From: Eledone cirrhosa
Lineage: Eukaryota
Length of the DNA: 64,000 nt
Direction: 5' to 3'
NCBI GenBank assembly: GCA_964016885.1
Contig: OZ024740.1
Span: 369,768,001 to 369,832,000, forward strand
A program made the translations under genes and the position numbers. Below are positions 17,220 through 62,749 of the stretch, piece after piece. The notes below the pieces were generated by a model. That model was not told the DNA's origin. It was given only the letters and a program-made list of their open reading frames with translations, and ran no database searches. Every line of letters starts with the position of its first letter. Position 1 is the stretch's first letter.

Positions 17220-20200
17220 CTATCCCCACAGACGACAATATATCTTCCAACAAAGGGTAGGAAGGGAGTTCTGGACAAATGTTGTGACCACATAGCAACT
17301 TTCCCATACCATGAACTACCGCAACCTAAACCCAAACCCAACACGAGTCGAAGGGAATGGGAGATTATCCATGAACTAAAAACCAATATTGACATTATAA
17401 TTAAGGAAGCGGACAAGGAAAGTACTGTCCTCATTATGGATGCTGAACGATAAAAAAATTCTATGTTCTCTCTCTTACAAGATACTAACTACTATGAAAG
17501 AGTAAAACCCTACCAGCAATCAAAAACGATGACCAGATTAAACACATTCAGGAAGAATTAACTAAAAAGGAATGCGATTATTTAACACATTTTTAATACA
17601 AAACCAGCAACCTTTACGGACTTCCGAAGGTCCACAAGTGTAAAACAATTAACGCTGCCTGTAAACAATCCACCTCAACCTGCGTACACACACAATACCC
17701 CCACAGACCTTAAATTAAGACCAATTGTAGCGGGCCCACAATGTGAAACACACAGACTAAGCAACTTTATAGACATACTACTAAAACCAATTCTGAAATA
17801 CATACCAAGCCTTGTAAGAGACGATCTGGACCTCTTAAACCACCTCCCCAAACATGTCAACAACGACACTATTATTGTGTCTTTCGATGTAGGGAATCTC
17901 TACACAACGATCCCACACGAGTACGGACTAGAAGCAATAGGAGTCTGGCTAGAGAAATATCCCAATGAGATAACTGACAGAATAGAAAAAAGCTTCATCA
18001 CCGACGGATTAAAATCTATTTTACAGAACAACTTTTTTTATTCCGATTGCAGTACTTACAAGCAAATATCGGGGACTGAGATGGGTACACTTATGCCAAC
18101 TTAGTCATGGCATACTTGGAAGTCCAGATAAATGAACACTCCAAATCAAAATACGAATTGAACTCCCACAAATATTTATCAGAGAATTGGAAACGCTACA
18201 TGGATGATTGTCTCATTCTTTGGTCTCACACACCAGACCAACTAAATGATTTCAAAAAATTAATTAACGGCATCAATAACCACATCCAGTTCACAGTGAA
18301 ATACAGCCAAGATCAACTCCCATTTCTGGACATCTTAATCATAAAAAAAGTCACAAATATTGAAACTGACATACACTACACACCAACAGATTCCAAACAA
18401 TACCTGATATTCACCTCCAACCATCCAAAGCGCACGAATCGGAACATCCCTTTTAACCTAGCAAGAAGAATGTGCATAATTGTCTCCAATTATGAAACCC
18501 GAAATAAAAGACTTCAAGAATTAAAGGAAATTCTACTCGAAAGACAGTACCCACCATTACTAATAAATAATGGAATAGAAAGGGCTAAAGCAATAGGCAT
18601 TGATGAATTACGAAAACAGGAATACATTCAAGGTACATCCAATATTCTATCATATATCTCAACACACAACCCAAGAAATGCGGAAGCTTACAACACTATT
18701 CACAAGAACATCCCACTATTGAAACAAGACCCAAGAATGAAAAAAGCCCTTGAAACACACAAAATAATAAAAAGCAAAAGACAACCAAAATCACTGAAAA
18801 CATTACTCACCAATGCCAAATTACCTACCACAAACCCACAACCAACTGTCAAAAATGTGGTCGCTCTAATTGTGGAACCTGCACTCACCTCATTGAAGGG
18901 AACACGTATACATTTTAATCAGGACAAAATTCTGCTGTAAATAATCTACTTTATGCCATTAAATGTAAAGGGTGCAATGATGATTGTATAGGACAAACTA
19001 AACTCACGCTCAGAAACAGAATGACAGTTCATCGCCAACAATTACGAGATCCTGCCACAAGACAGATACCACTCAGTGCACATCTAGACATATGCGCAAG
19101 TAATAAGACACCTACATTCCAAGTCTTCCCATTTTATCTTTGCGCTGACAATACAACAGAACAAATAAGAATAAATAAGGAAAATATGTTTATTCAAAAA
19201 TATAGACCAGCATTAAATATACTTTAATATACATTATGTCAAGAAAATAACATGCTAACCATCCAAACAGACACATACATACACACACACATAACACCTT
19301 CTATTTTAGAAAATAAAAACCAGAACTAAATAAACCTTAACATACGTTAATTCTCTAACACCTTAACATGCTAACAAAACACACACACATAACTCCCTCC
19401 CCCATTTCTACTAACGGATTCATTTTCCTACACACACACACACACACACATAAAACCCAAACACACAGACACACACCACTCCCTCCCCCATTTCAACTAA
19501 TAGAATCATCTACCTACACACACACACACGCACACACTCACACACACACACACACACACACACAAGAACACAAATAAACATATATATCTCTACTTTCTTG
19601 ATTTCAATAGAAAATCTGAATTTTGACACCCCAGCACACCAGCCATATTCACTGAACCAGAACAATTCTCCCCATCCCGTTTTTCTTGACCATTAATTTT
19701 TGTTTGGCACAAAATACCTTAAAAGGCTACAAAATAAATTCCCAAATACGGGCGCGAAATTTAATGCATTTGTTCACGTGACACTCATAATTTCATTTAT
19801 AACCAATCAAATTACATTTCAGCACATCAGTCATACTCTCTCCATCCCTTTTTCTTGACCATTATCTTTCTGAGTTCAAATCCCGCCGAGGTTAACTTTG
19901 CCTTTCATCCTTACGGCGTCGATAAAATAAAGTACCATTAATGCACTGGTGAATTGCTGGCCTTGTTCCAAACGTAGAAACAATTATCTTTTGTTTGGAA
20001 CAAAATTCTCTAAGTGGCTACAAAAAAATTCTAAAATACAGGCGCTAAATGTAATGTACCTGTTCGCGCGACAGAAATTTATAACGAATAAAATTACATT
20101 TATAAAAAAAAGAAGCCTGCGTGAGTCACTTTTTTTCAGCAAAAGGAAATTCAAACACAAACTAGCGCGAAAGCTGATGTGCTTATTCACGTGACTGCAT

Positions 20201-20610: not shown

Positions 20611-20844
20611 TAATATATATATATATATATAATCAACAACAAAGAACGCCTATAGCATATGCATATCTTTAATTGCTAACATTGTTTCATCCGCACTATA
20701 AGTGGGACTCATCAGAGCATAAAGGTTGATTACATATCACACAAGCAATAACAAATCCAAGACATTGAAGAAATAAAGAATAAAAAATATTGAGGAAGTA
20801 AAAATAAAAATAAACATTGAAAAATAAACATTGAAAAATAAACA

Positions 20845-21846
20845 TTGAAAAAAAACTCGCAGGCTGATTACTATAATGATGCCTTAGCTAGATCCGGCTT
20901 TAGGAACACATTGTATTATACCCAGGGAAATAATAGTCCTAATAGTAGCTCTACCAGTGTTGTTATAACACATAATATGTCCATTGGTAATAGAGGTGTC
21001 GCGAATGGGAGGGTTCTAAATGCCGGTGGAATGAACCAGCAGGGTACCATTAGTCTAAGCAATAGCAATGGTAGGCCTCGCAGCTCCCCGCATAAATTAG
21101 GTGAGCATAGTAACCGTAGAAATAATAATACTAATAATAATAATAGTGATGGAAATAAAAAGAATAAAAAGAATAGAAGAAGATTGAATACATACTTCAA
21201 CCCCCCTTTTAACTCTGAAGTGGCTATAAATATTCCTAGGGCCTTCTTCTCTGTGTTAGAAAGGAACTTCCCTCCTGGTAATAGGTACCACTCTATCCTC
21301 AATAAGAATGTTGTTAAACTTTCGTATTCTACAACCCAAAATCTGGCCTCTTATCTGGCCATTACTAATAATAGGAAAATAAAGGAAGGCCTGGACAACC
21401 TAAGCCTAGGGGAAAACACGGTAGTGGACAGAGGGGGCCGGAACACAAGTGGTGATCGTTCTGAGAATAGCATCACCAGAAATTGTAACTGTAGAAGGGC
21501 TTCAGGCTGCCCCCTGAATGGTTTCTGCCTTATTAGAAACATAGTTTATGCGTGTGATGTGGTAACTACGGCGTCCACTAAAACCTATATAGGATCAACC
21601 TCCACCCCCTTTAAGACCAGGTTTAACTCTCACCAGTGCACTTTTAGACACAATAAACTGAGGAACTCCACCTCCTTGGCAGCGTACGTCCACAATTTAA
21701 AAAATGCACGAACACATTACACACTTACTCGGCGGCAGGTTGCTAAATCCCATCCATATACTCCTCATAATAGAGTATGTAACCTATGCCTTGCCGAATC
21801 CCACTCTATTATATTTGCTAAATGCCCTCTACTAAACAGAAAGTGA
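20845..21846 (+). pseudogene. C-terminal PLE ORF: RT thumb remnant + GIY-YIG endonuclease
   Basis: CNCRRASGCPLNGFCL..IVY..KTYIGST..FKTRFNSH..CNLCLAE..LLNRK; the frame continues EIFSSCPH after an in-frame TGA. Confidence 0.85.
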
Positions 21847-23880
21847 GAAATATTTTCCTCTTGCCCCCACCGAATATTAAGCTCTTTCTTCTACTTTAAA
21901 CCTATTAGCTAGCACTTCCTTAATTCTCCAGTTGGGCTATCTTGTGTAACTGTCTCTTATTGTGTGTAACTGTTTCCTATTGTTTGTCTTCTATGTATAT
22001 GAGTCAGTGAGTGTATACGTATGCCTGTGGAAGAATATTGATCTGGATATTGGGGTGTACAGGTGAGTGGGTGTGTATGTTAATAAGCACCCCTGTTTGC
22101 CACAGCGGATGTAACCCATCCACGCTCGCCTACCCACCATTGGTGCATTGGTGGGTCTATCCCGACTTGTATCTTGCGGATCTGTACCTCTGTATGCGCA
22201 TGAGTTATGATGTAATGTATCTATGTAGAGCGTGTACTGTGATATAGGCTGCACAAATAGAAATCTAGTCTGTAAGTGTGGGCGGACCTGTGCCATCTCG
22301 CCGTAAGCAGTAGATACGTGGCACATGTACGTGTTGCCCTCCTATTCTGTGGTTTAAGATCTACAGGCTGACTTCTGGGAGCTCTTGCCCGGTGTTGTAG
22401 TCTTTCTAGCACGATCGGCCTTCCATATATTGACGGTCGTTGTTATTATCCCAAAAGTAACGTTTTGGCCCCGATAGCCCTCCGTAGTTACTAACGGTCT
22501 GTGTACACTTGAATCGGGCAATGGCACGTGCGGACACGATTATCTTCGTGGGAATTTAATTTGATTTATTTTACTGCATCTCCTCGTATGTATTTATTTT
22601 GAATGTATTATCCGTGGTGGTGGGTCTTGCCTAATGTGGTATTTCTGTGTTTAATATCAGCTTTGACCCGGGTGTCCTACGCTGTGTGTGTGTGCGTGTG
22701 TGTCTGTGTATACATTTATATGTGTATGGGTGTAGGTGGCTGTATATGTCTGTATATAAATATATATATATATGTATACCGTCTCTGCATATGCATGTGG
22801 TGTGTATATGTGCATATACGTGCAGAACATATTGGTGTGTATAATCTTGAGATGTCCCAATGCGGTGACTTCATGATATTGGCTCTTGAAGCTATTTTTT
22901 ATATATCTTTTGTATGCGCTGTTGAGTATGCATATTAACCCGCCTGACCCAGCTGTATTTGCTTGCTTTCGGCTAGCCCGACTGCACCTGTTTGCTTTCG
23001 GCCCACTTGTCTGCCTCTTGCTGCTGCACGTGAATTCTCCTACCTTCCTTCGATGTACCTCTGTTGACCATTGGACTCCTGCCCGGGTGTGAACCGGTTT
23101 GTGATTACCCCACCGCTCAACTGTGTGAATGCACACCCGTGACTTTCGAGTGAACTTTTGAGACTGCCCAACCTGGGACGTCTCCATTGCATTGCAATGG
23201 TCAAGTGATACTGATAACTGTGACACTTAGGGCCTTCGTGGGCCCCTGATATATTCAAGAAAAATATATATCTTATCTCAATTTACTTTATTTTATTTTA
23301 TTTTATTTCATTTCATTTTATTTTATTTTATTTATTTAATTTTATTTAATTTAATTTTATTTAATTATATCTTATATTATATTATTTTATTTTAGTTTAT
23401 TTTATTTTATTTTATTTTATTTTATCTTATTTTATTATTATATTATATTATATTTTATTTTATATAATTTTAATTTTAATTTTATTTTATTTTATTTTAT
23501 TTCATTCCTTACCCTGTAACACTATTATCTGTATATTTTATATGTATGTTTTTTATATTTTCTTATATATATTATATGTCTATTGTTTACCTATTTTTCA
23601 CCTATTTTTTATCTATTCTTACCTACTCCTATCTATCTTATCTATTCTTGTCTGTTCTCTTATCCATGTTTATGCTTGTATGTAACTATATGTTGACAGC
23701 ACCCCGCCCAACTGTGACTGATAGCACCCCTTATTTTTCAATTATTTTTCAATGTTTATTTTACAATGTTTATTTTTATTTTTACTTCCTCAATATTTTT
23801 TATCTTTTATTATTTTTTATTCTTTATTTCTTCAATGTCTTGGATTTGTTATTGCTTGTGTGATATGTAATCAACCTTTA

Positions 23881-23926
23881 TGCTCTGATGAGTCCCACTT
23901 ATAGTGCGGATGAAACAATGTTAGCA
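23881..23926 (+). ncRNA. Minimal type I hammerhead ribozyme (inverted copy at 20674-20719, minus strand)
   Basis: TGCT-CTGATGA-GTCCCACTTATAGTGCGGAT-GAAAC-AAT-GTT-AGCA: stem I TGCT/AGCA, intact core, GUU triplet. Confidence 0.8.
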
Positions 23927-24062
23927 AGTAAAGATATGCATATGCTATAGGCGTTCTTTGTTGTTGATTATATCACGGCTCTGTCCTCAGATATCGAGCT
24001 AACCTTATACTGCCTGTTGGATAAGTGGAGTGTTATACACCCCTGATCCTCTCCCTAATATA

Positions 24063-24237
<175 letters not shown>

Positions 24238-29166: not shown

Positions 29167-32380
<3,214 letters not shown>

Positions 32381-34855: not shown

Positions 34856-34957
34856 GTCAAAAATGAAACGAAATTTCATTTATCACTCTTAGTACGGCTG
34901 TTACTTAAATATAAGTATGTATACGTACATACATATACGTATACAGACGTTCTGTAG

Positions 34958-34962
<5 letters not shown>
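34855..34962 (-). mobile_element. Left piece of an older diverged copy of the 466-bp family (right piece 41765-41945)
   Basis: AAATGAAACGAAATTTCATTTATCACTCTTAGTA...CAGACGT aligns to the unit with mismatches, and collinearity resumes after the array. Confidence 0.75.
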
Positions 34963-34993
<31 letters not shown>

Positions 34994-35232
34994 GTAAGTA
35001 TGCATGTATACGTACATACATATATGTATACAGACGTACAGTAGCATGCACATATATATATATATATACATATATATATACATATGCATACAGGTACACA
35101 TACATGTATGCACGTATCAGTTTAGCGGCGCTAACGTCGCTTTGTTCGTTTGTAAACAAACTGAACAGCCTGAATTTATGCCATACGGTGTTAAGGCAAC
35201 CACGTCACCTTTTTGTTCAACACTGACACAGG

Positions 35233-35277
35233 AACGATGTACTAGTTTCAAGCTTGTTAGCTATCATCAGCACCGTT
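35233..35277 (-). ncRNA. Minimal type I hammerhead ribozyme, first of 11 minus-strand copies spaced 466 bp apart
   Basis: Reverse complement reads AACGGTG-CTGATGA-TAGCT-AACA-AGCTT-GAAA-CTAG-TA-CATCGTT. Confidence 0.85.
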
Positions 35278-35350
35278 TACCCATCTGCCAGATAGTTGAA
35301 CGTTCGAAAGTATATACTTTCCTTATGAAAATTAACGGCTGAGCAGCCTA

Positions 35351-35358
35351 ATTTGCAT
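35351..35358. promoter_or_regulatory. Octamer motif ATTTGCAT in every array unit (also 57639-57646)
   Basis: Exact octamer, conserved in the diverged relative. Function is inferred only. Confidence 0.35.
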
Positions 35359-38300
35359 ATTGAGTGAGTTAAATCGGTCAGGCATACCGAAAACGATAAA
35401 TTGAAACAAAATGAAAACGAAATTTCATTTCTCACTCTTAGTATGGCACTTACTTAAATGTAAGTATGCATGTATACGTACATACATATATGTATACAGA
35501 CGTACAGTAGCATGCACATATAAATATATATATACATATATATATACATATGCATACAGGTACACATACATATATGCACGTATCAGTTTAGCGGCGCTAA
35601 CGTCGCTTTGTTCGTTTGTAAACAAACTGAACAGCCTGAATTTATGCCATACGGTGTTAAGGCAACCACGTCACCTTTTTGTTCAACACTGACACAGGAA
35701 CGATGTACTAGTTTCAAGCTTGTTAGCTATCATCAGCACCGTTTACCCATCTGCCAGATAGTTGAACGTTCGAAAGTATATACTTTCCTTATGAAAATTA
35801 ACGGCTGAGCAGCCTAATTTGCATATTGAGTGAGTTAAATCGGTCAGGCATACCGAAAACGATAAATTGAAACAAAATGAAAACGAAATTTCATTTCTCA
35901 CTCTTAGTATGGCACTTACTTAAATGTAAGTATGCATGTATACGTACATACATATATGTATACAGACGTACAGTAGCATGCACATATATATATATATATA
36001 CATATATATATACATATGCATACAGGTACACATACATATATGCACGTATCAGTTTAGCGGCGCTAACGTCGCTTTGTTCGTTTGTAAACAAACTGAACAG
36101 CCTGAATTTATGCCATACGGTGTTAAGGCAACCACGTCACCTTTTTGTTCAACACTGACACAGGAACGATGTACTAGTTTCAAGCTTGTTAGCTATCATC
36201 AGCACCGTTTACCCATTGCCAGATAGTTGAACGTTCGAAAGTATATACTTTCCTTATGAAAATTAACGGCTGAGCAGCCTAATTTGCATATTGAGTGAGT
36301 TAAATCGGTCAGGCATACCGAAAACGATAAATTGAAACAAAATGAAAACGAAATTTCATTTCTCACTCTTAGTATGGCACTTACTTAAATGTAAGTATGC
36401 ATGTATACGTACATACATATATGTATACAGACGTACAGTAGCATGCACATATATATATATATATACATATATATATACATATGCATACAGGTACACATAC
36501 ATATATGCACGTATCAGTTTAGCGGCGCTAACGTCGCTTTGTTCGTTTGTAAACAAACTGAACAGCCTGAATTTATGCCATACGGTGTTAAGGCAACCAC
36601 GTCACCTTTTTGTTCAACACTGACACAGGAACGATGTACTAATTTCAAGCTTGTTAGCTATCATCAGCACCGTTTACCCATCTGCCAGATAGTTGAACGT
36701 TCGAAAGTATATACTTTCCTTATGAAAATTAACGGCTGAGCAGCCTAATTTGCATATTGAGTGAGTTAAATCGGTCAGGCATACCGAAAACGATAAATTG
36801 AAACAAAATGAAAACGAAATTTCATTTCTCACTCTTAGTATGGCACTTACTTAAATGTAAGTATGCATGTATACGTACATACATATATGTATACAGACGT
36901 ACATTAGCATGCACATATATATATATATATACATATATATATACATATGCATACAGGTACACATACATATATGCACGTATCAGTTTAGCGGCGCTAACGT
37001 CGCTTTGTTCGTTTGTAAACAAACTGAACAGCCTGAATTTATGCCATACGGTGTTAAGGCAACCACGTCACCTTTTTGTTCAACACTGACACAGGAACGA
37101 TGTACTAGTTTCAAGCTTGTTAGCTATCATCAGCACCGTTTACCCATCTGCCAGATAGTTGAACGTTCGAAAGTATATACTTTCCTTATGAAAATTAACG
37201 GCTGAGCAGCCTAATTTGCATATTGAGTGAGTTAAATCGGTCAGGCATACCGAAAACGATAAATTGAAACAAAATGAAAACGAAATTTCATTTCTCACTC
37301 TTAGTATGGCACTTACTTAAATGTAAGTATGCATGTATACGTACATACATATATGTATACAGACGTACAGTAGCATGCACATATATATATATATATACAT
37401 ATATATATACATATGCATACAGGTACACATACATATATGCACGTATCAGTTTAGCGGCGCTAACGTCGCTTTGTTCGTTTGTAAACAAACTGAACAGCCT
37501 GAATTTATGCCATACGGTGTTAAGGCAACCACGTCACCTTTTTGTTCAACACTGACACAGGAACGATGTACTAGTTTCAAGCTTGTTAGCTATCATCAGC
37601 ACCGTTTACCTATCTGCCAGATAGTTGAACGTTCGAAAGTATATACTTTCCTTATGAAAATTAACGGCTGAGCAGCCTAATTTGCATATTGAGTGAGTTA
37701 AATCGGTCAGGCATACCGAAAACGATAAATTGAAACAAAATGAAAACGAAATTTCATTTCTCACTCTTAGTATGGCACTTACTTAAATGTAAGTATGCAT
37801 GTATACGTACATACATATATGTATACAGACGTACAGTAGCATGCACATATATATATATATATACATATATATATACATATGCATACAGGTACACATACAT
37901 ATATGCACGTATCAGTTTAGCGGCGCTAACGTCGCTTTGTTCGTTTGTAAACAAACTGAACAGCCTGAATTTATGCCATACGGTGTTAAGGCAACCACGT
38001 CACCTTTTTGTTCAACACTGACACAGGAACGATGTACTAGTTTCAAGCTTGTTAGCTATCATCAGCACCGTTTACCCATCTGCCAGATAGTTGAACGTTC
38101 GAAAGTATATACTTTCCTTATGAAAATTAACGGCTGAGCAGCCTAATTTGCATATTGAGTGAGTTAAATCGGTCAGGCATACCGAAAACGATAAATTGAA
38201 ACAAAATGAAAACGAAATTTCATTTCTCACTCTTAGTATGGCACTTACTTAAATGTAAGTATGCATGTATACGTACATACATATATGTATACAGACGTAC

Positions 38301-40460
38301 AGTAGCATGCACATATATATATATATATACATATATATATACATATGCATACAGGTACACATACATATATGCACGTATCAGTTTAGCGGCGCTAACGTCG
38401 CTTTGTTCGTTTGTAAACAAACTGAACAGCCTGAATTTATGCCATACGGTGTTAAGGCAACCACGTCACCTTTTTGTTCAACACTGACACAGGAACGATG
38501 TACTAGTTTCAAGCTTGTTAGCTATCATCAGCACCGTTTACCCATCTGCCAGATAGTTGAACGTTCGAAAGTATATACTTTCCTTATGAAAATTAACGGC
38601 TGAGCAGCCTAATTTGCATATTGAGTGAGTTAAATCGGTCAGGCATACCGAAAACGATAAATTGAAACAAAATGAAAACGAAATTTCATTTCTCACTCTT
38701 AGTATGGCACTTACTTAAATGTAAGTATGCATGTATACGTACATACATATATGTATACAGACGTACAGTAGCATGCACATATATATATATATATACATAT
38801 ATATATACATATGCATACAGGTACACATACATATATGCACGTATCAGTTTAGCGGCGCTAACGTCGCTTTGTTCGTTTGTAAACAAACTGAACAGCCTGA
38901 ATTTATGCCATACGGTGTTAAGGCAACCACGTCACCTTTTTGTTCAACACTGACACAGGAACGATGTACTAGTTTCAAGCTTGTTAGCTATCATCAGCAC
39001 CGTTTACCCATCTGCCAGATAGTTGAACGTTCGAAAGTATATACTTTCCTTATGAAAATTAACGGCTGAGCAGCCTAATTTGCATATTGAGTGAGTTAAA
39101 TCGGTCAGGCATACCGAAAACGATAAATTGAAACAAAATGAAAACGAAATTTCATTTCTCACTCTTAGTATGGCACTTACTTAAATGTAAGTATGCATGT
39201 ATACGTACATACATATATGTATACAGACGTACAGTAGCATGCACATATATATATATATATACATATATATATACATATGCATACAGGTACACATACATAT
39301 ATGCACGTATCAGTTTAGCGGCGCTAACGTCGCTTTGTTCGTTTGTAAACAAACTGAACAGCCTGAATTTATGCCATACGGTGTTAAGGCAACCACGTCA
39401 CCTTTTTGTTCAACACTGACACAGGAACGATGTACTAGTTTCAAGCTTGTTAGCTATCATCAGCACCGTTTACCCATCTGCCAGATAGTTGAACGTTCGA
39501 AAGTATATACTTTCCTTATGAAAATTAACGGCTGAGCAGCCTAATTTGCATATTGAGTGAGTTAAATCGGTCAGGCATACCGAAAACGATAAATTGAAAC
39601 AAAATGAAAACGAAATTTCATTTCTCACTCTTAGTATGGCACTTACTTAAATGTAAGTATGCATGTATACGTACATACATATATGTATACAGACGTACAG
39701 TAGCATGCACATATATATATATATATACATATATATATACATATGCATACAGGTACACATACATATATGCACGTATCAGTTTAGCGGCGCTAACGTCGCT
39801 TTGTTCGTTTGTAAACAAACTGAACAGCCTGAATTTATGCCATACGGTGTTAAGGCAACCACGTCACCTTTTTGTTCAACACTGACACAGGAACGATGTA
39901 CTAGTTTCAAGCTTGTTAGCTATCATCAGCACCGTTTACCCATCTGCCAGATAGTTGAACGTTCGAAAGTATATACTTTCCTTATGAAAATTAACGGCTG
40001 AGCAGCCTAATTTGCATATTGAGTGAGTTAAATCGGTCAGGCATACCGAAAACGATAAATTGAAACAAAATGAAAACGAAATTTCATTTCTCACTCTTAG
40101 TATGGCACTTACTTAAATGTAAGTATGCATGTATACGTACATACATATATGTATACAGACGTACAGTAGCATGTGTACCTGTATGCATATGTATATATAT
40201 ATGTATATATATATATATATGTGCATGCTACTGTACGTCTGTATACATATATGTATGTACGTATACATGCATACTTACATTTAAGTAAGTGCCATACTAA
40301 GAGTGAGAAATGAAATTTCGTTTTCATTTTGTTTCAATTTATCGTTTTCGGTATGCCTGACCGATTTAACTCACTCAATATGCAAATTAGGCTGCTCAGC
40401 CGTTAATTTTCATAAGGAAAGTATATACTTTCGAACGTTCAACTATCTGGCAGATGGGTA

Positions 40461-40505
40461 AACGGTGCTGATGATAGCTAACAAGCTTGAAACTAGTACA
40501 TCGTT
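40461..40505 (+). ncRNA. Minimal type I hammerhead ribozyme (also 40927-40971 and 41393-41437)
   Basis: 7-bp stem I AACGGTG/CATCGTT, CTGATGA and GAAA cores, palindromic stem III ACTAGT, GUA triplet (predicted cut after 40498). Position 10.1-11.1 is U.U. Confidence 0.85.
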
Positions 40506-41734
40506 CCTGTGTCAGTGTTGAACAAAAAGGTGACGTGGTTGCCTTAACACCGTATGGCATAAATTCAGGCTGTTCAGTTTGTTTACAAACGAACAAAGCG
40601 ACGTTAGCGCCGCTAAACTGATACGTGCATATATGTATGTGTACCTGTATGCATATGTATATATATATGTATATATATATATATATGTGCATGCTACTGT
40701 ACGTCTGTATACATATATGTATGTACGTATACATGCATACTTACATTTAAGTAAGTGCCATACTAAGAGTGAGAAATGAAATTTCGTTTTCATTTTGTTT
40801 CAATTTATCGTTTTCGGTATGCCTGACCGATTTAACTCACTCAATATGCAAATTAGGCTGCTCAGCCGTTAATTTTCATAAGGAAAGTATATACTTTCGA
40901 ACGTTCAACTATCTGGCAGATGGGTAAACGGTGCTGATGATAGCTAACAAGCTTGAAACTAGTACATCGTTCCTGTGTCAGTGTTGAACAAAAAGGTGAC
41001 GTGGTTGCCTTAACACCGTATGGCATAAATTCAGGCTGTTCAGTTTGTTTACAAACGAACAAAGCGACGTTAGCGCCGCTAAACTGATACGTGCATATAT
41101 GTATGTGTACCTGTATGCATATGTATATATATATGTATATATATATATATATGTGCATGCTACTGTACGTCTGTATACATATATGTATGTACGTATACAT
41201 GCATACTTACATTTAAGTAAGTGCCATACTAAGAGTGAGAAATGAAATTTCGTTTTCATTTTGTTTCAATTTATCGTTTTCGGTATGCCTGACCGATTTA
41301 ACTCACTCAATATGCAAATTAGGCTGCTCAGCCGTTAATTTTCATAAGGAAAGTATATACTTTCGAACGTTCAACTATCTGGCAGATGGGTAAACGGTGC
41401 TGATGATAGCTAACAAGCTTGAAACTAGTACATCGTTCCTGTGTCAGTGTTGAACAAAAAGGTGACGTGGTTGCCTTAACACCGTATGGCATAAATTCAG
41501 GCTGTTCAGTTTGTTTACAAACGAACAAAGCGACGTTAGCGCCGCTAAACTGATACGTGCATATATGTATGTGTACCTGTATGCATATGTATATATATAT
41601 GTATATATATATATATATGTGCATGCTACTGTACGTCTGTATACATATATGTATGTACGTATACATGCATACTTACATTTAAGTAAGTGCCATACTAAGA
41701 GTGAGAAATGAAATTTCGTTTTCATTTTGTTTCA

Positions 41735-41769
<35 letters not shown>

Positions 41770-41948
41770 CATACATGCACACATATATATGTACGTATGG
41801 ATTCACCGAACATTTATTATAATGCTCGGTGTGTTTGTAAACAAACATCCCGAATTATGCCGTACAGTGTCTTACAACCATCGTTGCTCGTTTGTTCAAC
41901 ACTGACAAAGGAACGCTGTACTAGTTTCAAGCTTATTAGCTATCGTAT

Positions 41949-42055: not shown

Positions 42056-42141
42056 TCTATCGGTCGCAACTCCAGGTAGAAGGAGCAGCGTGAAATAATT
42101 ATTTCACGCTGCTCCTTCTACCCGGAGTTGCGACCGATAGA
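42056..42141. repeat. 86-bp loopless palindrome with one mismatch
   Basis: TCTATCGGTCGCAACTCCAGGTAGAAGGAGCAGCGTGAAATAA|TTATTTCACGCTGCTCCTTCTACCCGGAGTTGCGACCGATAGA. Confidence 0.95.
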
Positions 42142-42434: not shown

Positions 42435-42476
<42 letters not shown>

Positions 42477-43089
42477 AGGATGAATATAAAATGAAAGTGC
42501 TTTTGTTAAAAAAGGAATTTATTAGGTATTGACATATGTTTCTGTAACAGACCGAATACCTATGTATCGCTGCTTGCGTAATCATATATTGTTAGCAAGT
42601 ATTCGATAGCAAATGTATAATCAGTTGTCACTTCTTCAGAGATTTTGGATAAACTGGATAAAATCAGAAAAATTGAAGTATTTATATTAGTAAAAGAGGA
42701 AGGAACAGAGGGGATAGTATATGACATGGTAAAATAATTTACTGCTAAACAAGTATATAATGGGTTTTTAATGAGAATACCATGAGTAAATCTAAATAAG
42801 AATTTTGGGAGTGCCAATTTTAATCTCTACTTGAGCAACTGGACAGTGGACAGGGCTGGTCATTTGGTGCAGTAGTATTAATTATAAAGTGTCAATTGGG
42901 GAAGGGGGAGATTTCGATTGCTACTAAATAACATCAATGCTAGTAGCCAGCTGGTATATGCATTAGGGAATTGAATCAAGAAATCAGAAATCTCATTTAT
43001 AGCAGTTTGTATTAAAAGGTAAATAATAGAAGAGTTGATAGAATTAAGACTAATAAAGAATGTTCATATCTATTTTGACAATCAAACGG

Positions 43090-43868
43090 GAGTATATCTG
43101 GTACAACCCGGTCTGTAACAACTCTATTAAAACCAATCTACCCTCAAAATTCTTTCGATTAGTTAGAAAACACTTTCCAACATCACATAAATATAATAAA
43201 ATCTTAAACCCTAACACTATTCGACTTTCATATTCAACCGCCCCTAATATTGAACAACATATAAAAAAGCTTAACGCAAAACGGTTGTATAAACGCCTTC
43301 CAACACATAACAATACACGTAAAACATTAGCTATAACATCACAAAACAACAAACAACATCCTGTCCTACATAAGCAACCTCATCAACCCATCCATGGCAA
43401 TACAACAACGCAAAATTATAATTGCAACTGTGTCCAACCAGGAATGTGTCCGTTGAACAATCAGTGTCTTGAACGCAACATCGTATACAAATGTACTATC
43501 GAATCGGATAGACAGAAGTGGTACTATGTGGGATCTACAGCCACCCCCTTCAAATCACGCCTTTATAGACATCGTTATTCGATAAAACATGAAAACCAGC
43601 GTTATGTAACAACACTCGCAGACAAGGCTTGGCAGCTGCGTGAAAATAACCAAAAATTTCACCTAAAATGGGATATAATAGCGGCTGCCCCCCCCCCCCC
43701 CCCCCCCCCCAATCCCATGGACAGGAATTGTGTAAATTATGTAATGTAGAATTATTTTGTATTATGAAATCCAAAAACATTTTATTAAATAACAGAATAG
43801 AGCGATCGTTATACTGTAACCATCGCTTAAAATCTACATTTTCATATTATAAATACTACCAGGATTGA
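43090..43868 (+). pseudogene. PLE GIY-YIG endonuclease C-terminal fragment, frameshifted at a poly-C run
   Basis: IWYNP..CNCVQPGMCPLNNQCL..IVYKC..YYVGST..FKSRLYRH, then CKLCNVE..LLNNR..CNH in another frame. Confidence 0.85.
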
Positions 43869-44335
43869 ACGCCTGTCTCTATCCCCGTTTGATTGTCAAA
43901 ATAGATATGAACATTCTTTATTAGTCTTAATTCTATCAACTCTTCTATTATTTACCTTTTAATACAAACTGCTATAGATAAAATGAGATTTCTGATTTCT
44001 TGATTCAATTCCCTAATGCATATACCAGCTGGCTACTAGTATTGATGTTATTTAGTAGCAATCGAAATCTCCCCCTTCCCCAATTGACACTTTATAATTA
44101 ATACTACTGCACCAAATGACCAGCCCTGTCCACTGTCCAGTTGGTCAAGTAGAGATTAAAATTGGCACTCCCAAAATTCTTATTTAGATTTACTCATGGT
44201 ATTCTCATTAAAAACCCATTATATACTTGTTTAGCAGTAAATTATTTTACCATCTGTCATATACTATCCCCTCTGTTCCTTCCTCTTTTACTAATATAAA
44301 TACTTCAATTTTTCTGATTTTATCCAGTTTATCCA

Positions 44336-44457
44336 AAATCTCTGAAGAAGTGACAACTGATTATACATTTGCTATCGAATACTTGCTAACAATATATGAT
44401 TACGCAAGCAGCGATACATAGGTATTCGGTCTGTTACAGAAACATATGTCAATACCT
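44336..44457 (+). ncRNA. Hammerhead-like motif with a ~90-nt extended stem II (inverted copy near 42525-42645)
   Basis: CTGAAGA; GTGACA/TGTTAC, ACTGA/TCGGT, TATCG/CGATA and CTTGC/GCAAG helices; GAAA-CATATG-TC; AATAAA downstream. Stem I pairs poorly. Confidence 0.55.
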
Positions 44458-44630
44458 AATAAATTCCTTTTTTAACAAAAGCACTTTCATTTTATATTCA
44501 TCCTTTCTACATTTCTCCGGAATATAATTTATACTCGTTGAGCAAACCGGCACGTACGCTGTTCACTCCGAATAGAAGGAGCAGCGTGAAATAATTATTT
44601 CACGCTGCTCCTTCTACCTGGATATATATA

Positions 44631-52237: not shown

Positions 52238-53297
52238 TCTATATATATAAAACTGTGGTTGTCTGTCTGTCTATCGATTTTTGGCACACATCTCCTCTTA
52301 GAATCTCTCACGGAATTGCACCGAAATTGCTATACTTGTACATTGAGCCCTAGCGAAGACATCGGAAAAAAAAATTTCAAATTGACCCACCCTATGTGAC
52401 GAAATCGAATATAATGTATCGATTTTTGAGCGTAAGTTATCAGTTATTTCCCTTTGTTCTGTTTACATTGAGCGTCTTACGTAAAAAATTACGCTGGCTT
52501 TAACAGTTGTCGAGCCAGCAAAATATTGACCTGCAAAATTCATCAGTTCGAACACTAAGCTTCCGTTTTGCTTCATTTCCATTTAAAAGCATTTTAAAAC
52601 AATATTTTTACTTGAAAACAAGTCTATTTAAAGACTACGTAAAACAAGCAAATATTTCGTCGTTAGGCGTGCAGACAGACAGTCGTGCAGACAGACAGTC
52701 GTGCAGAGAGGTGATATAGGCGTGCAGACAGACAGTCGTGCAGAGAGGTGATTTAGGCGTGCAGACAGACAGTCGTGCAGAGAGGTGATATAGGCGTGCA
52801 GACAGACAGTCGTGCAGAGAGGTGATATAGGCGTGCAGACAGACAGTCGTGCAGAGAGGTGATATAGGCGTGCAGACAGACAGTCGTGCAGAGAGGTGAT
52901 ATAGGCGTGCAGACAGACAGTCGTGCAGAGAGGTGATATAGGCGTGCAGACAGACAGTCGTGCAGAGAGGTGATATAGGCGTGCAGACAGACATAACTGA
53001 TAATTTGGTTACGCTAATGTTTTTCTCTGCGTTGCAGTGTTTACATTTTCGTTCTTTGTTAATAAATCACCAGTGCAGTTTCTATCCCCAGCATCCTCTT
53101 TTGTTATAACATTCGGGTTATCGTTATGTTTTCTTAACTTCATAAGGCATATTGTTGGTTGAGGGAATATTAATCAAAACACCACATGCAAATCTGCACA
53201 GTAGACACTACAGTTTTTAAGCCAAGAAAGAAACTTAACATTGTAACTTTAACACAGCTACTGAGCGACCCCGAGCAACGCCGGGCTTTACTGCTAG
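52238..53297 (+). mobile_element. Non-autonomous Helitron
   Basis: 5' TCTATATATATAAAA and 3' hairpin CCCCGAGCAACGCCGGG...CTAG, inserted between A and T. The 3' end matches the large Helitron. Confidence 0.88.
52664..52992 (+). repeat. 37-bp minisatellite inside the Helitron, about 8.5 units
   Basis: Unit TAGGCGTGCAGACAGACAGTCGTGCAGAGAGGTGATA. Confidence 0.95.
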
Positions 53298-53329: not shown

Positions 53330-53505
53330 GTAAGATAAAATGTGAACCATAACGCACCAGAGTACTCAATACTTAGGGTAGTAGAGTGGGTAATAGGAAA
53401 AGAGTTAAGACACCGACGACTGAGCTCCGGCCGTTTCGACAGCCGGTTCGGATCTAGCTGTCGAAACGGCCAGAGCTCAGGCGTCGTGGTCTTGACTCTT
53501 TTCCT

Positions 53506-56417: not shown

Positions 56418-57283
56418 TATATTGTATGCATGTATGTATGTGTCTATGTATGCATGTATGTATGTGTCTATGTCAAAGGGCAACGGAACTCTTAAGAGTC
56501 AATGGCCATCCAAGGTCACGGGGAGAGATGACACCTTAGCCCTTGTCAAGGTAGAATTCTAGGAGAAGGAAAACTCTGATATAACACCTGCAACTCTGAT
56601 GGTATCCAATGATGTTGACTTGTTCTTCTTTTTGGTAAATATCATCTTGGTTAAGGGACTGGCTTTGTGCAGTGCCTTTGCTCACTATAAAAGATTCACG
56701 CCACAGGCATTGCTTTATATCTGGAGATCTCTCTGCACTTGTCGTCACATGGTACCATGGGCCCAGCACTATGTGTCAATAATTGTCACAAGTGTAGTGT
56801 TTGTACCAGAGTTTTCAAGTTGCTGGCTGGACTAAAAAGTCACACTCGTTCAGCGCATCGGTAGGGGTTCTCCTACATGGATATAAAGTAGTGGCCGTAC
56901 TCGAAATCGAGTTGGCAGCCACCATATATATATAGTATTTTTGTTCTTATTTATTTGTTTATTTAGTTATTCCTGTTTCTAAACTACTTGCCATTGACTC
57001 GCACATATTTATACTTGCTTGTGCATGTGTATATATATATATATTTAAAGAATGAAGATTAACATGGTTGGCTGTATAATAAGGGCTTTATTTAAAGTGT
57101 TGACAATTGTTTCATTGATCATGTGGGTCTAGAGTTCGCTAATAGCTTGATGTTGTGTTATTCGATCTCCAATACATTATTTACCTCTGGTCAACACATC
57201 AGAGTACGTAGATGTGAAAATAATTCACTCGAGGCAAGACATATAGAAAGAAATAGCGTATAATTAAAACAATAATATCTTTA

Positions 57284-57805
57284 AACAATTAAGTTAAAAA
57301 TGTACATCTACATATGCATACTGAAATACTAGTGTGTATATGAATACACACACGTATACATTTGTAGGTGTAACAAGTCTTTCACTGGTTGCTTTACTGT
57401 GAGCAACTCAGCTATTCTGTATGTAAACACACAGACAAACCGGTTTTTAGAGTCATACTGGTTTTCGGGGGAACACCTTCCCTCTATTCTCCAGAAAGCC
57501 AGACAAGGAATATTGCACTAGTTTCGTTGTTGTTACAACTCATCAGCAATATTTACCTATCTACCGGCTCTTCTGGAGAATCGTAAAAGCACATATCGTT
57601 ATATGCTTTTTCTATGAAAATTAGTAGTGGGCAGACTAATTTGCATAGAGTGTGAGTACGCACCGGTTCAGCGGAGACGATAAAAACAAATAACGAAACG
57701 AAATTAAATTTCGTTTCGTTTGTAACTCACTTTTGTATGACTGACGCTTAAACAATTAAGTTAAAAATGTACATCTACATATGCATACTGAAATACTATA
57801 TATAT
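57284..57805 (-). mobile_element. 1.1-mer of a 467-bp hammerhead monomer, diverged relative of the 466-bp array
   Basis: 51-bp terminal direct repeat at 57281-57331 and 57748-57798; 9-bp TSD ATATCTTTA at 57275-57283 and 57806-57814; shared motifs in the same order as the array unit. Confidence 0.85.
57509..57553 (-). ncRNA. Minimal type I hammerhead, probably inactivated (GUG triplet)
   Basis: AATATTG-CTGATGA-GTTGT-AACA-ACAAC-GAAA-CTAG-TG-CAATATT. Confidence 0.8.
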
Positions 57806-57808
57806 ATA

Positions 57809-60800
57809 TCTTTATATATATAAAAGCGATGATGTGTGTGTGTCTGTCTACAACTTTGCATGCATAAGGCTTTCACAATTACCAACTGAATTTGACCAAA
57901 TTTTCTGTGCCCGTTCCACACGTCGCTAAGATTGTCACATCACAAACATTTTTCAAATGGACCCATGTTGAGCAATAAAAAATCGACATCAAAATTATAG
58001 GTAGAAAAATTGATGTAAGGGAGATAACAAATTTTATTTTGACAATCCTTATAAAAAAGGGAGTTAACCAACTTTTCAATATAAACATCACATTTATTTG
58101 AAGATAAATCACTACTATTATATTTTGTTTCTTGTTTATTCTTTATTGCACTTTCAAAGTTAAAAAAAAACACTTGTTGTTTTAACTTGTTTCACTATAT
58201 TAAGTGTTAATGTTCGCGTTGAGGGCATAATCTCGCAGCAGTATCGAATTGACGAGATTTTGATGATGGTTGGTTTATTTTTAGAACAATCGTTATGGGA
58301 GTTTCAATTCAAACCATTGGGACCTACAACATTTTCATTTTTAAAACTTTCATAATCAAAGCCATTTCGGTAAACCAGATTTGTTTATTACTTTCACTTC
58401 AAACCCAAAATGGGAAGAGATTCAGAAAATACTCTTTCCAGGTCAAAAAGCCACAGCCAGGCAGGATCTTATTGCCAGAGTTTTCCATCTTAAGTTAATT
58501 AAGCTCATGGAACTTATCAAAACAGATGGCCCAGTACAATTTGACATGCTTACAATTGAGTGGCAAAAACGAGGCTTGCCACATGTCCACGTTCTGATCT
58601 GGTTAAAGACAAAACTTAGATCAGATGAAATTGACAATGTCGTTTATGCTGAGTTTCCGGATCCTACAATCGACAGGGACCTTTACCAAAAAGTTAAAGC
58701 ACACATGGTGCATGGCCCATGTGGCCATGGATTTCACAACAACCTACCGTGTGTTAAGGACAAGTCTAGGTGCTCAAAGAAATTTCCGCCGACAGTTCCT
58801 TAAGGACACTCAGACTGGTCATGACGGATACCCACTATATCGCCGAAGAAGATCCGAACATGGTAGATTCACAGCAAGTGTTAGCAAACATGAGTTTGAC
58901 AACAGATGGGATATAATCCACTCCTTATAAAGATTGTTGATGCACACATAAACGTAGAATACTGTAATTCGATTAAATCTATAAAATACATTTGTCAGTA
59001 CATTAATAAAGGCTCTGATGCTGCTACATTTGATTACTTCGGGAAAAACAGCCGAGATTAAGTGGCCCAGTACCAAACTGGAAAATACATTAACTCTAAT
59101 GAAGCCTTCTGGCGGATTTTCAGATTTGTTATACATCAACGGCATCCTGCTGTTCAAAAACTTCAAGTGCACCTGGAGAACGGTCAGAGAGTATATTTTA
59201 CGAATGCATCAGCTGCTCAGTTAGCACAAGAACCAAAGGATACTACTCTTACCACTTTCTTTAAACTATGTCAAGAAGATCCATTTGCTAAAACCTTACT
59301 ATATCCACAAGCCCCATCTTACTAAACCTGGGACAAAAATGCATGGAAGCGAAGAAAAAAGGACAGTGTGTCGAAGGTTATCCAGGCATCAAGTTCAACG
59401 AGTGCTTGGGCAGAGTTTATACTGTGCCCCCAAACCAACACGAGTGCTTCCATTTTCGTATGCTACTGCAACGGTGGCGGATGTTGCTCTTTCACATTCA
59501 CCTGCCAGCCTAAGAAATGTATTTGCGGTTCTTTTGCACTCGTGCAACTTATCTGACCCTCTGTCCTTGTGGATGATATATAAGGATGAACTAACAGACG
59601 ACTACAGACACCAAGCACAATTGCTGCTTCCAGAAATAGAGGTCGGCTTTATTAATGAATTATACAACAGAGCTCTCATTGATATTGAGGACAAGTTAGC
59701 TCTGATTGGAGGAAAGGTTTTACGTGACTACTGTTTACCAGAAACTCATCGTACAGACTCAAACAAACTTCCCACAGATATCATACAGGAGATTTATTAT
59801 GACATCCATGGTCTCGGCCTCTACGTCACAAATAATGAGCCAAAACTTCTAGCTGATCAGCGACTGGCTTATACCACCATTACTGATTTGGTATTTCAAA
59901 GAGGAGGTGGCATATTTTTCCTCGATGCTCCAGGGGGGACAGGAAAAACTTTCGTTACTAAACTTCTTCTTGCAAAGGTTAGACAGAATAAGGACAGAGC
60001 AATAGCAGTTGTGTCCTCTGGAATCGCAGCAACTTTGCTCCCTGGTGGAAGGACGGCACATTCAGTTTTTAAATTGCCTCTTGATTTGGCAAAATTGGAA
60101 ACTCCTACTTGTCATATCACCAAAGACGCCGAAAGGGCTTATCTGCTGCGAAGGTGTCACCTTATTGTTTGGGATGAGTGCAGAATGGCGCACAAAGGTG
60201 CTCTTGAGGCACTAGACAGGTCTTTGCAAGACATACGGGATTGCAGTGGTGTTATGGGGGGTGTCACCCTTCTGCTATCAGGAGACTTCAGACATACTCT
60301 TCCTATAATACCGAAAGGAACAAGAACAGATGCGGTAAATGCATGTCTTACGTCTTGACCATTATGGCGACAAGTGACATCATTAAGAGTAACTACCAAC
60401 ATGCGTGCAAGGTTGCATGGGGACCCTCTGTCATCAACATTTTTTGGAGACATTCTTACAATAGGAGATGGTAACCTACCTCCGGATACAGATGGACACA
60501 GCAATTGATCACATCTGCAATGTAGTTGAAACTGTCGTTGATCTCAAGGCGAGTATATTCCCGAACTTGCGTGATAACTATACGAATCGTGATTGGCTAT
60601 GCGAAAGAGCCATTCTTGCACCCAAAAATATCACGGTTATCTGTATTAACGATCAGCTTCTTCAGCTTCTTCCTGGATGTCCACGGATATATAAATATAT
60701 TGATACTGTATGTGATTCACAGGATGCGGTCAATTATCCAGTTGAATTTCTAAATTCTTTAAATCCTCCTGGTTTACCTCCTAATACATTGGTTCTGAAA

Positions 60801-61882
60801 GAGGGAACATCAGTTAATTTGCTGAGAAATATCACTCTTCCAAATCTATGCAATGGTACACGCCTTGTGATTAAAAAAGTGTCTCCACTTAGTATTGATG
60901 CTACCTTTCTATCCGGGTGTGGAAAAGGCGAGGATGTGATAATAACAAAAATTAGCCTGACTACATCAGGCGTGGATACTCCCTTCTCCTTTCGCCGAAC
61001 CCAATTTCCCCATCGTGTTGCCTTTGCAATGTTCATAAACAAGTCGCAAGGTCAAACTCTGTCTGTCGCTGGAATTCACTTGGATGAACCTTGCTTTTCG
61101 CACGGACAATTCTACGTTGCCTGCTCACGAGTTGGCAGGCGAGATAATCTCTTTGCGTTTGTTCCAAAAGAAAAACAAAGAATATCATCTATCCTGAAGT
61201 ACTTTAGTGTTAACAAAAAAACTTATTACAGTTCTGCCTTGACTTCACCTTACTCATTACGAAACATACCAAGGAATATGTCATGCAGGATATTTTGGAT
61301 TATAAGTTTAAAATGTAACCATACACAGCAAAGGATGCTCTCAAAGAATATATTTTCTCTTATTCTACTCTCATTGTTTTTTTGTTTGTATACAACTCTG
61401 CTTTCATTACAACTTTTGTACTTTAGTAAAACTGCCTGTTCTTTTTACAGATTTGCAACGTGTATTGTCTTTAATCATTTTTATAACTACATCCTGTTCA
61501 GTGTTTTCCTTCATTATCAGCATAGTGGATTGGTAGTATCGGTAGAGGGTCGGACGCCATGCTTTGACGCAAAGAGTTACGGCCCTTCCCATTCTGAGTT
61601 CAAATCACGCCGAGGTTAACTTTGCCTTTCATCCTTACGGGGTCGATAAAATAAAGTACCAGTAATACACTGGGTAATTGCTGGCCTTGTGCCAAAAAGT
61701 AGAAACAATTATCAACATAGTTTTATGTGTACAAAGATTGCACTAAATATTCGTTTGCATTAATTATTGAAGACTTCTGCTTATTTTGACATGTTGGGAC
61801 ATATAATGTTCTTCTTTTACTTCCTAGCTGTATATTCTTAGCATAATTTCAAACCCCGAGCAACGCCGGGTAAATCTGCTAG
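57809..61882 (+). mobile_element. Helitron with decayed Rep/helicase
   Basis: 5' TCTTTATATATATAAAAG and 3' CCCCGAGCAACGCCGGG...CTAG followed by T. A SINE is nested at about 61527-61707 with an imperfect 14-bp TSD. Confidence 0.93.
58290..61210 (+). pseudogene. Helitron RepHel (HUH replication initiator + Pif1-family helicase), frameshifted
   Basis: FITFTSNPKW, EWQKRGLPHVH, MVHGPCG, DAPGGTGKT, IVWDEC, LLSGDF, NKSQGQTL and FSHGQFYVACSRV across several frames. Confidence 0.93.
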
Positions 61883-62749
61883 TCAATAATAAAATAGCGT
61901 ATAATCTAAACAATAACATCAATAATAATAGATGTATGGTAAATAGGTTGAGAAGTTACAGATGTAAAAAGTAAAAGTAAACTATAAGATAGGTTACATC
62001 AAAAATTAAGAAAAATGAGAGAATGAAAAATATAAAGGGATAAATAAATAAATAAGTGAGAGCTTGTAAGTACATAGTAGTAGTTTTTAAGTAAGTGTTC
62101 TTATAAGGATTCCCTGGTGGGAAACTAGATTCGAGATGTACATAGATACGTGTAGAGGGTCCGATAAAAGAGATAATAAATTAGAGATTAATTGCTGGAT
62201 GTATGTATGATATTTATGGGCTAGGGATGATGGGACATTTGATAAACGCTTGTTGTAAATGTTTTGCTGATTGTTCTATTTTAATGGGGTTGATGTTGTT
62301 TCAGTGAGAGAGGGTGAAAGAAATGTTCAGAGATTTATGATCCAGTGCCTAGTTGGGCGTTTGATAGCTAATAGCAGTGCGATGGTGTGTATTATGTATG
62401 TAAAATCTCTCTACACGTATCTATGTACATCTCGAATCTAGTTTCCCACCAACGAATCCTTATAAGAACACTTATTGAAAAACTACTACTATGTACTTAC
62501 AAGCTCTCATTTATTTATTGTTCTCTTTATATTATCTATTCTCTCATTTTCTTACTTTTTTATATAACCTATCTTATATTCTACTTTTACTTTTTACATC
62601 TATAACTTCTCTACCTATTTACCATACATGTATTATTATTGATGTTATTGTTTAGATTATACGCTATTTTATTATTGATGTTATTGTTTTAATTATACGA
62701 TATTTTTCTATATAAGTCTTGCCTCAAGTGATTTACCTTCACATCTACA

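What the first reader, a model, noticed from the sequence alone, without database searches (positions are those of the whole stretch)
38600..41740. The array is shaped like one PLE-type insertion with an inverted 5' arm, giving a ~3-kb palindrome
Seen: orientation flips at 40171-40173 through a 3-nt microhomology, both ends lie in (TA)n, and read on the HHR strand the element is 3.4 antisense units followed by 11.1 sense units. Coding PLEs in this window have the same layout (20631-24064, 42472-44572). Inference: a PLE reverse transcriptase went round a circular template about 11 times and folded back, instead of the array growing by unequal crossover. The palindrome could form long dsRNA or a cruciform.
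Basis: partly seen in the sequence, partly recalled or inferred. Interest (0 to 1): 0.82.

Follow-up and report, generated by a model that had tools for sequence, protein, structure and literature searches.

The report
Two-armed hammerhead retrozyme insertion
A 466-base non-coding repeat with a predicted self-cutting RNA motif sits here as two back-to-back runs of copies in a TA microsatellite, and the fixed ends of many such insertions suggest that a Penelope-type enzyme likely copied one RNA from both cut DNA ends at once instead of folding back.

Summary
The layout is real: 11.12 units (34991-40173) and 3.37 inverted units (40171-41740) of a 466-nt type I hammerhead repeat, a perfect 1517-bp palindrome with a 50-nt spacer, both ends in (TA)n. 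The flanks are the two co-linear halves of one older copy, so this is one insertion, not a foldback artefact. The family has 4,066 exact hits. In 18 of 19 young two-armed loci one arm ends at site A and the other at site B, about 61 nt apart. Either arm is the longer (9 and 9). Inner ends are arbitrary, and all 40 adjacent strand switches share one polarity. Two coding Hydra-like PLE families show the same pairing. Best reading: both target ends prime cDNA, at the two RT start sites known to bound the PLE tail, and the cDNAs join. A circular template is likely but unproven; one locus shows a multimeric template. No RNA evidence. This scan reached the same reading earlier for other retrozymes of this genome. 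Known kind, useful mechanistic handle.

The parts
34991..40173 (-). Long arm: 11.12 tandem copies of the 466-nt unit; outer end at site B (unit phase 118), no tail
   Evidence: five substitutions and one 1-nt deletion, each private to one unit
40171..41740 (+). Short arm: 3.37 copies, identical to the major unit; outer end at site A (unit phase 57)
40171..40173 (.). Junction of the two arms, 3-nt overlap
   Evidence: chance of 3 nt or more is 6.9%
38657..41740 (.). Perfect palindrome: 1517-bp arms, 50-nt AT-rich spacer 40174-40223
41680..41740 (+). 61-nt 'tail': the stretch between start sites B and A, present at this end only
   Evidence: pair I7 maps 34991 onto 41679
40461..40505 (+). Predicted type I hammerhead (one of 14 copies): 7-bp helix I, conserved core, 4-bp helix II, minimal palindromic helix III; predicted cut between 40498 and 40499
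   Evidence: by inspection; no Rfam match at gathering score; cleavage untested
34961..34990 (.). (TA)n target, left
41741..41773 (.). (TA)n target, right
34860..34960 (-). Left half of an older diverged copy of the same family (unit phases 69 to about 180, 84% alike)
41774..41944 (-). Right half of the same older copy (phases about 200 to 393, 76% alike), co-linear with the left half
20627..24067 (+). Comparison: coding Hydra-like PLE, short inverted arm ending at its site B (23973-equivalent), main arm ending at its site A with a 94-nt tail
42469..44565 (+). Comparison: second coding Hydra-like PLE, inverted arm 42469-43090 ending at its site B; tail cut short by a hairpin element

Best explanation
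This is a single young insertion of a non-coding 466-nt hammerhead repeat into a (TA)n tract, likely made by a borrowed Penelope-like (PLE) RT-endonuclease that likely primed cDNA from both cut target ends, one at site A and one at site B of the same RNA, probably a circle, after which the two cDNA ends would join by short microhomology. Shown: the two-arm layout, the split target, fixed and paired outer ends, arbitrary inner ends, one polarity, the same unit variant in both arms, the same rules in coding PLEs. Inferred: cutting of both strands, one RT at each start site (a dimer), read-through past the ribozyme site on a circular or uncut multimeric RNA, end joining. The palindrome is a by-product of that geometry. 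The partner PLE is not identified.
For: Single insertion: flanks are co-linear halves of one older copy split at its (TA)n. Polarity: 40 of 40 adjacent strand switches in 66 stretches (L031-L095 plus window) diverge from the junction as here. Paired ends: 18 of 19 young two-armed loci are A+B, the other is B plus an end shortened to phase 80; over all 40 two-armed junctions 30 A+B, 1 B+B, 9 unresolved. Arm lengths: A longer in 9, B longer in 9. Inner ends uniform round the unit (Rayleigh p about 0.29) and 0 of 38 within 10 nt of the ribozyme cut. Both arms share locus-specific variants in 11 of 17 loci; 0 of 43 unit-specific variant calls sit at the same position in both arms. Units identical in 142 of 346 within-locus pairs against 4 of 136 between-locus pairs. 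Junction overlaps exceed chance modestly (13 clean junctions, p 0.019). Both start sites begin with the same 5-nt motif, found 3 times in the unit. Coding family 1: 12 of 12 two-ended loci are A+B and either arm can be longer; family 2: 7 of 9. Literature: purified PLE protein cuts and extends both strands, starts internally, is predicted to be a dimer, and the tail is the stretch between two RT start sites (PMC11167929).
Against: No biochemical or RNA evidence in this organism. The sample is the first 113 Mb of one contig. The circle is not proven: L080/L081 has a three-unit haplotype run twice in one arm and once, shifted by one turn, in the other, which points to a multimeric template there or to one arm copying the other; L082/L171 has haplotype blocks; 3 of 22 loci carry variants shared by some units only. 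For the anole PLE uncut RNA is the main substrate and no strand difference in start site was seen. 4 of 17 young junctions have 1-18 unassigned bases, not microhomology. Family 2 has 2 of 9 A+A loci, though in both the host flanks are inverted too. Three reverse-polarity neighbours exist at gaps of 67, 295 and 1258 nt. At this one locus a foldback from the long arm is geometrically possible. No coding PLE with matching terminal sequence was found.
Confidence: 0.68

Rival explanations
1. Foldback or self-priming (first reader; akin to the self-priming model proposed for Penelope): one cDNA goes round about 11 times, snaps back and copies itself, and an endonuclease cut or other resolution fixes the second end.
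For: Possible at this locus (short arm equals a stretch of the long arm). Self-priming is in print (PMC3846280) and the tail has been ascribed to endonuclease resolution (PMC8557442). The shifted haplotype run in L080/L081 fits copying of one arm.
Against: One fixed start cannot give a longer second arm, yet A is longer in 9 and B in 9 loci, likewise in coding PLEs. It needs two mirror-image routes and a stop at one exact nucleotide in mid-array. 0 of 43 variant calls mirrored at the same position (weak, since a tandem copy may be in another register). Both ends are RT start sites in vitro for another PLE.
Confidence: 0.15
2. Twin priming as above but on an uncut linear multimer read through from a source array, with no circle.
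For: Helix III is minimal, like the slow axolotl type (PMC7229834); uncut RNA is the main PLE substrate in vitro; L080/L081 and L082 show multi-unit haplotypes; coding PLEs also run past the unit joint.
Against: Most arrays are uniform for a locus-specific variant across both arms, which asks for a one-unit bottleneck; linear copying alone cannot lengthen arrays (inference); other animal retrozymes accumulate as monomer circles.
Confidence: 0.3
3. A short insertion grew in place by unequal crossover or slippage and was inverted later.
For: Li et al. 2026 favour local amplification for such arrays. Some loci show haplotype blocks.
Against: All six variants here are private to single units. It does not explain 40 of 40 polarity, paired A and B ends, or both ends in (TA)n.
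Confidence: 0.06
4. The inversion is a foldback-read or assembly artefact.
For: The junction itself could not be tested: it lies in a repeat that the read tool skipped. The palindrome arms have no differences while six variants lie outside them (post hoc p about 0.03).
Against: The right flank is new sequence that continues the older copy, not a mirror of the left flank. Mirror duplications look different: L172 and L174 have the same end twice and inverted host flanks. Contigs of public run X2 hold ten other left-to-right joints of this unit, and runs X2, X3 and X8 show (TA)n loose ends at site A (libraries not on record, may include the source sample).
Confidence: 0.03

Closest known systems
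Animal non-LTR retrozymes (Cervera and de la Pena 2020, PMC7229834; Li, Clavereau and Pollet 2026, bioRxiv 10.64898/2026.07.22.740005)
   Same: Non-coding, low-GC tandem unit with a type I hammerhead in each copy; dispersed arrays; proposed circular template copied into tandem cDNA by a PLE enzyme.
   Different: Word searches of these two texts found no account of inverted two-armed insertions, fixed paired ends or a tail (PMC7229834: 'inverted' 0 hits; Li et al.: 'inverted' only in a reference, 'priming' and 'tail' 0). Supplements and figures were not seen. Circles and cleavage are shown there, not here.
Endonuclease-bearing Penelope-like elements, Hydra clade (Craig et al. 2021, PMC8557442)
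   Same: Partial tandems, adjacent inverted truncated copy, a tail at one end, (TA)n targets, hammerheads. The window's coding PLEs show the CxCX5C linker, and family 1 the DKT motif.
   Different: This unit has no RT or endonuclease. Tails here are 61, 94 and about 105 nt against the 30-40 reported. The paper leaves the origin of tandem and inverted structures undefined.
Anole PLE PAc in vitro (Frangieh et al. 2024, PMC11167929)
   Same: Two internal RT start sites bounding the tail; both target strands cut and extended; AT-rich targets; predicted dimer.
   Different: It reports no strand difference in start site and does not treat inverted insertions ('inverted' 1 unrelated hit). The near-obligate pairing of one A with one B end per insertion is what these loci add.
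LINE-1 twin priming (recalled from memory, no call)
   Same: Second target end primes a second cDNA; arms diverge from a microhomology junction.
   Different: As recalled, L1 arms cover different parts of a linear RNA and the second start is not fixed; here the arms overlap, run many units and start at fixed sites.

Membership tests
Animal non-LTR retrozyme | Type I hammerhead motif in each tandem unit | tested here: met
   14 copies with core, helix I, II and minimal III; one has a helix III substitution. No Rfam hit at gathering score, so the call rests on motif and pairing.
Animal non-LTR retrozyme | Short tandem unit, dispersed arrays | tested here: met
   466 nt (just above the 150-450 of PMC7229834, inside the 51-972 of Li et al.); 10,122 and 4,066 exact pattern hits in the genome.
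Animal non-LTR retrozyme | Low GC, no RT or other recognisable protein, no LTR layout | tested here: met
   GC 36%; no ORF of 150 aa or more in the array; longest ATG frame 112 aa, not examined further.
Animal non-LTR retrozyme | Expressed, self-cleaved and circularised RNA | not testable with these tools
   Needs RNA data or a bench assay. Circular fold is stable (z about -9.6), partly owing to the TA hairpin.
Animal non-LTR retrozyme | Target-site duplication | tested here: inconclusive
   Hidden in (TA)n; the target is nonetheless split in two.
PLE-type insertion (works like) | Inverted truncated copy adjacent to a tandem run, diverging from the junction | tested here: met
   40 of 40 adjacent switches.
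PLE-type insertion (works like) | Tail at one end only | tested here: met
   18 of 19 young two-armed loci.
PLE-type insertion (works like) | (TA)n target | tested here: met
   Outer flanks listed.
Autonomous PLE | RT plus GIY-YIG ORF | tested here: not met
   None in the unit.
Derivative of a named PLE family | Unit homologous to the pseudo-LTR of a coding PLE | tested here: inconclusive
   Two coding families checked (L096-L170); the hits found look like separate neighbouring copies of the unit. Other PLE families were not searched.

The most novel reading that the evidence does not exclude
PLE integration is an obligately asymmetric twin-priming reaction: one RT of a dimer starts at site A and the other at site B, one on each target end, and on a small hammerhead circle the two chase each other round, so that every retrozyme array with an inverted arm is the direct print of one rolling-circle event. 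Two loci where an A-ended arm of this family joins the tail-less end of another family hint that the two RTs can even use different RNAs.
Probability: 0.45. Interest if true: 0.72.

Novelty: new member of a known kind. Interest (0 to 1): 0.5.

Why it matters
How PLEs make their tandem and inverted insertions is stated to be unresolved (PMC8557442), and PLE mobilisation of animal retrozymes rests on co-occurrence and sequence kinship. Here a non-coding element carries the full PLE integration print, and the A+B pairing joins two in vitro facts (both strands extended, two start sites) into one testable rule. It also implies hundreds of kilobase-scale near-perfect palindromes in this genome (extrapolated: 14 of 22 young loci sampled are two-armed; about 900 young loci if 100 hits per 22 loci holds). 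The locus itself is not unique: L084 and L080/L081 have longer shorter-arms.

Tried and rejected
Rfam at gathering score: no match. DNA search of the genome with the unit: nothing, the words being too common. Pfam: 0 families for 5 PLE-like ORFs, so their class rests on motifs and on a full 873-aa frame. Sequencing runs: no RNA holder listed; runs X1 and X5 hold one unit-sized contig only and their kind is unknown; X24 laid no reads; the 40172 junction fell in a skipped repeat, so expression, editing and the junction are untested. Partner search: neither coding family's ends match the unit. Idea that arms stop at the ribozyme cut: 0 of 38, about 1.7 expected by chance, so no pile-up but low power. 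Foldback from the short arm through the 50-nt loop: impossible, the other arm is 5.2 kb. A genome count of this locus's exact microsatellite variant was not obtained; among fetched loci the same unit occurs in L095, L093 and L085. L082 was left out of end counts because it runs into an assembly gap; L080 and L081 were merged. Two of the 19 'young' loci (L069, L070) scored young only through a short arm. The 43 one-arm variant calls include a few alignment side effects of a deletion in L080/L081. Paper searches for twin priming or both-strand priming in PLEs or retrozymes listed no paper that states the A+B rule; most subscription journals and all supplements and figures were out of reach.

Full report
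Observation. The array has a 466-nt period: 34991-40173 holds 11.12 units and 40171-41740 holds 3.37 units in the other orientation. The arms overlap by 3 nt. The innermost exact palindrome is 38657-40173 against 40224-41740 with a 50-nt spacer. Both outer ends abut (TA)n. Each unit has a type I hammerhead by inspection (7-bp helix I, core, 4-bp helix II, minimal palindromic helix III); Rfam gave no match. The hammerhead strand runs away from the junction in both arms. Below, 'phase' counts from window 38600 on the plus strand; the predicted cut is at phase 366/367.

One insertion. The flanks 34860-34960 and 41774-41944 align to phases 69-180 and 200-393 of the unit at 84% and 76%. They are the two halves of one older copy, split at its own TA tract. 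A foldback read would mirror the left flank; it does not. The long arm has five substitutions and one deletion, each in one unit only; the short arm has none. All six lie outside the palindrome (post hoc p about 0.03), unexplained.

The family. A 40-nt hammerhead pattern has 10,122 exact hits and a 65-nt young-subfamily pattern 4,066 (reversed controls 0). Only the first 100 places of each were listed, all on contig 1 up to 113 Mb. I fetched 65 stretches around them and mapped arms by unit phase. All 40 adjacent strand switches (gap under 60 nt) have the window's polarity; three reverse neighbours lie at gaps of 67, 295 and 1258 nt. Outer ends fall at two sites: A (phase 56-62, mostly 57) and B (112-125, mostly 116-119), in (TA)n. 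Of 19 young two-armed loci, window included, 18 have one A and one B end; of all 40 junctions 30 are A+B, 1 B+B and 9 unresolved. The A arm is longer in 9 and the B arm in 9. The 38 inner ends are spread evenly (p about 0.29) and none is within 10 nt of the ribozyme cut. Here the long arm ends at B and the short arm at A, with a 61-nt tail (41680-41740). Both sites begin with the same five bases, which occur three times in the unit.

Junctions. Of 17 young junctions examined closely, 13 are clean with 0-5 nt overlap (sum 21, p 0.019 against random joins) and 4 have 1-18 unassigned bases. The window's 3 nt alone has a 6.9% chance.

Template. Units are identical in 142 of 346 within-locus pairs and 4 of 136 between-locus pairs (the between-locus mean distance is raised by two old loci). 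In 11 of 17 two-armed loci a locus-specific variant runs through both arms, for example 9 of 9 units in L084; none of 43 unit-specific calls sits at the same position in both arms. This fits one template variant per event, copied twice independently. Against a monomer circle in every case: L080/L081 has the run 'plain, 8-nt deletion, substitution' twice in the A arm and once, one turn earlier, in the B arm, and L082/L171 has haplotype blocks. A multimeric circle, a linear multimer or later local exchange would explain these. I put a circular template for this locus at about 0.55-0.6.

Coding PLEs. The window's two truncated PLEs belong to young families with open frames up to 873 and about 780 aa. 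The CxCX5C linker, the DKT motif (family 1), a hammerhead (family 1) and (TA)n targets match the Hydra clade as described in PMC8557442; no tree was built and Pfam was silent. Family 1: of 16 loci (15 fetched, 9 chosen for opposed endonuclease hits, plus the window) 12 show both ends and all 12 are A+B, tail 94 nt; the tail-less arm is the longer in at least three and the tailed arm in at least two. Family 2: 7 of 9 chosen loci are A+B, tail about 105 nt; the two A+A loci have inverted host flanks as well, so they look like later mirror duplications or artefacts. Neither family's ends match the unit, so the partner is unknown.

Mechanism. A strand that starts at one fixed site and folds back cannot make a second arm longer than itself, and has no reason to stop at one nucleotide in mid-array. 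Read inward from the flanks, both arms are the strand complementary to the hammerhead RNA, as expected if each target end primed its own cDNA. Purified anole PLE protein cuts and extends both strands, initiates internally at two sites that bound the tail, is modelled as a dimer and mostly uses uncut RNA (PMC11167929, main text read). I therefore infer twin priming with one start at A and one at B, read-through past the ribozyme site, and joining of the cDNA ends. Foldback keeps about 0.15: it is in print as a hypothesis (PMC3846280, passages) and possible at this single locus.

Reads. No RNA holder was listed. Contigs of run X2 show ten other left-to-right joints of this unit, and X2, X3 and X8 show (TA)n loose ends at site A; X3 also covers the unique left flank. 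Libraries are not on record and may include the source sample. The 40172 junction was skipped as a repeat. dsRNA, editing and cruciform are untested; the central 351 nt fold at -186 kcal/mol as DNA, as any such palindrome would.

Comparison and novelty. The element fits animal non-LTR retrozymes (PMC7229834: passages and Discussion read; Li et al. 2026: parts 1-3 of 5, through the Discussion). Inverted arms, tails and (TA)n targets are known for PLEs (PMC8557442: passages and the Hydra section). In the texts read and in five searches I saw no statement of paired A+B ends or of two-armed retrozyme insertions; supplements, figures and most subscription papers were not seen. LINE-1 twin priming is recalled, not looked up. 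Earlier notes of this scan reach the same reading for a 310-nt family in this genome and file a 467-nt family as a PLE-style retrozyme; my reading was written down before that look-up, and those notes are not independent support.

Verdict. Interest 0.5, for the testable rule on PLE integration, not for this locus alone.

Noticed in passing
L038:3659-3701 and L059:3121-3189: An A-ended arm of this family is joined directly to 43-69 nt of another abundant repeat whose tail-less end lies in (TA)n: possible mixed two-armed insertions from two different RNAs. L058 and L077 may be similar.
   Followed up: partly
window 53406-53493 and 5404-5438; L031, L038, L093, L110: A second short non-coding family with back-to-back arms, a tail at one end and (TA)n targets; no hammerhead core found near it.
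   Followed up: partly
L080/L081 (G000:C1:69577966-69586757): About 19-unit two-armed array with a three-unit haplotype run in both arms, shifted by one turn.
   Followed up: partly
L172 and L174: Coding PLE loci with the same end twice and inverted host flanks: mirror duplications or assembly foldbacks.
   Followed up: partly
window 57500-57760: Distant relative of the unit with its own hammerhead (minus strand, 57546); an octamer-like motif (name recalled) is kept in both, at unit phase 12. A link to snRNA-type promoters is recalled only; one search did not confirm it.
   Followed up: partly
window 58345-61619, with inverted repeats 57041-57291 / 62665-62915: Broken Helitron-like Rep and PIF1 helicase frames (Pfam PF14214, PF05970) lying between 87% inverted repeats.
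   Followed up: no
window 17586-18940 and 31489-32217: Further PLE-like RT fragments of two other types, by motif inspection.
   Followed up: no
window 42075-42130 and 44573-44616: Two copies of a short perfect hairpin element; one cuts the tail of the 42469 PLE.
   Followed up: no
window 36642: The private substitution here falls in helix III of one unit's hammerhead.
   Followed up: no
window 34175 and 48539: Two related sequences with a hammerhead-like core on the plus strand.
   Followed up: no
window 52684-52993: Young 37-nt minisatellite, 8.4 copies, 99% alike.
   Followed up: no
public runs X1 and X5: Each holds a single unit-sized contig (470 and 486 nt) of the young variant and no flank; run type unknown.
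   Followed up: no
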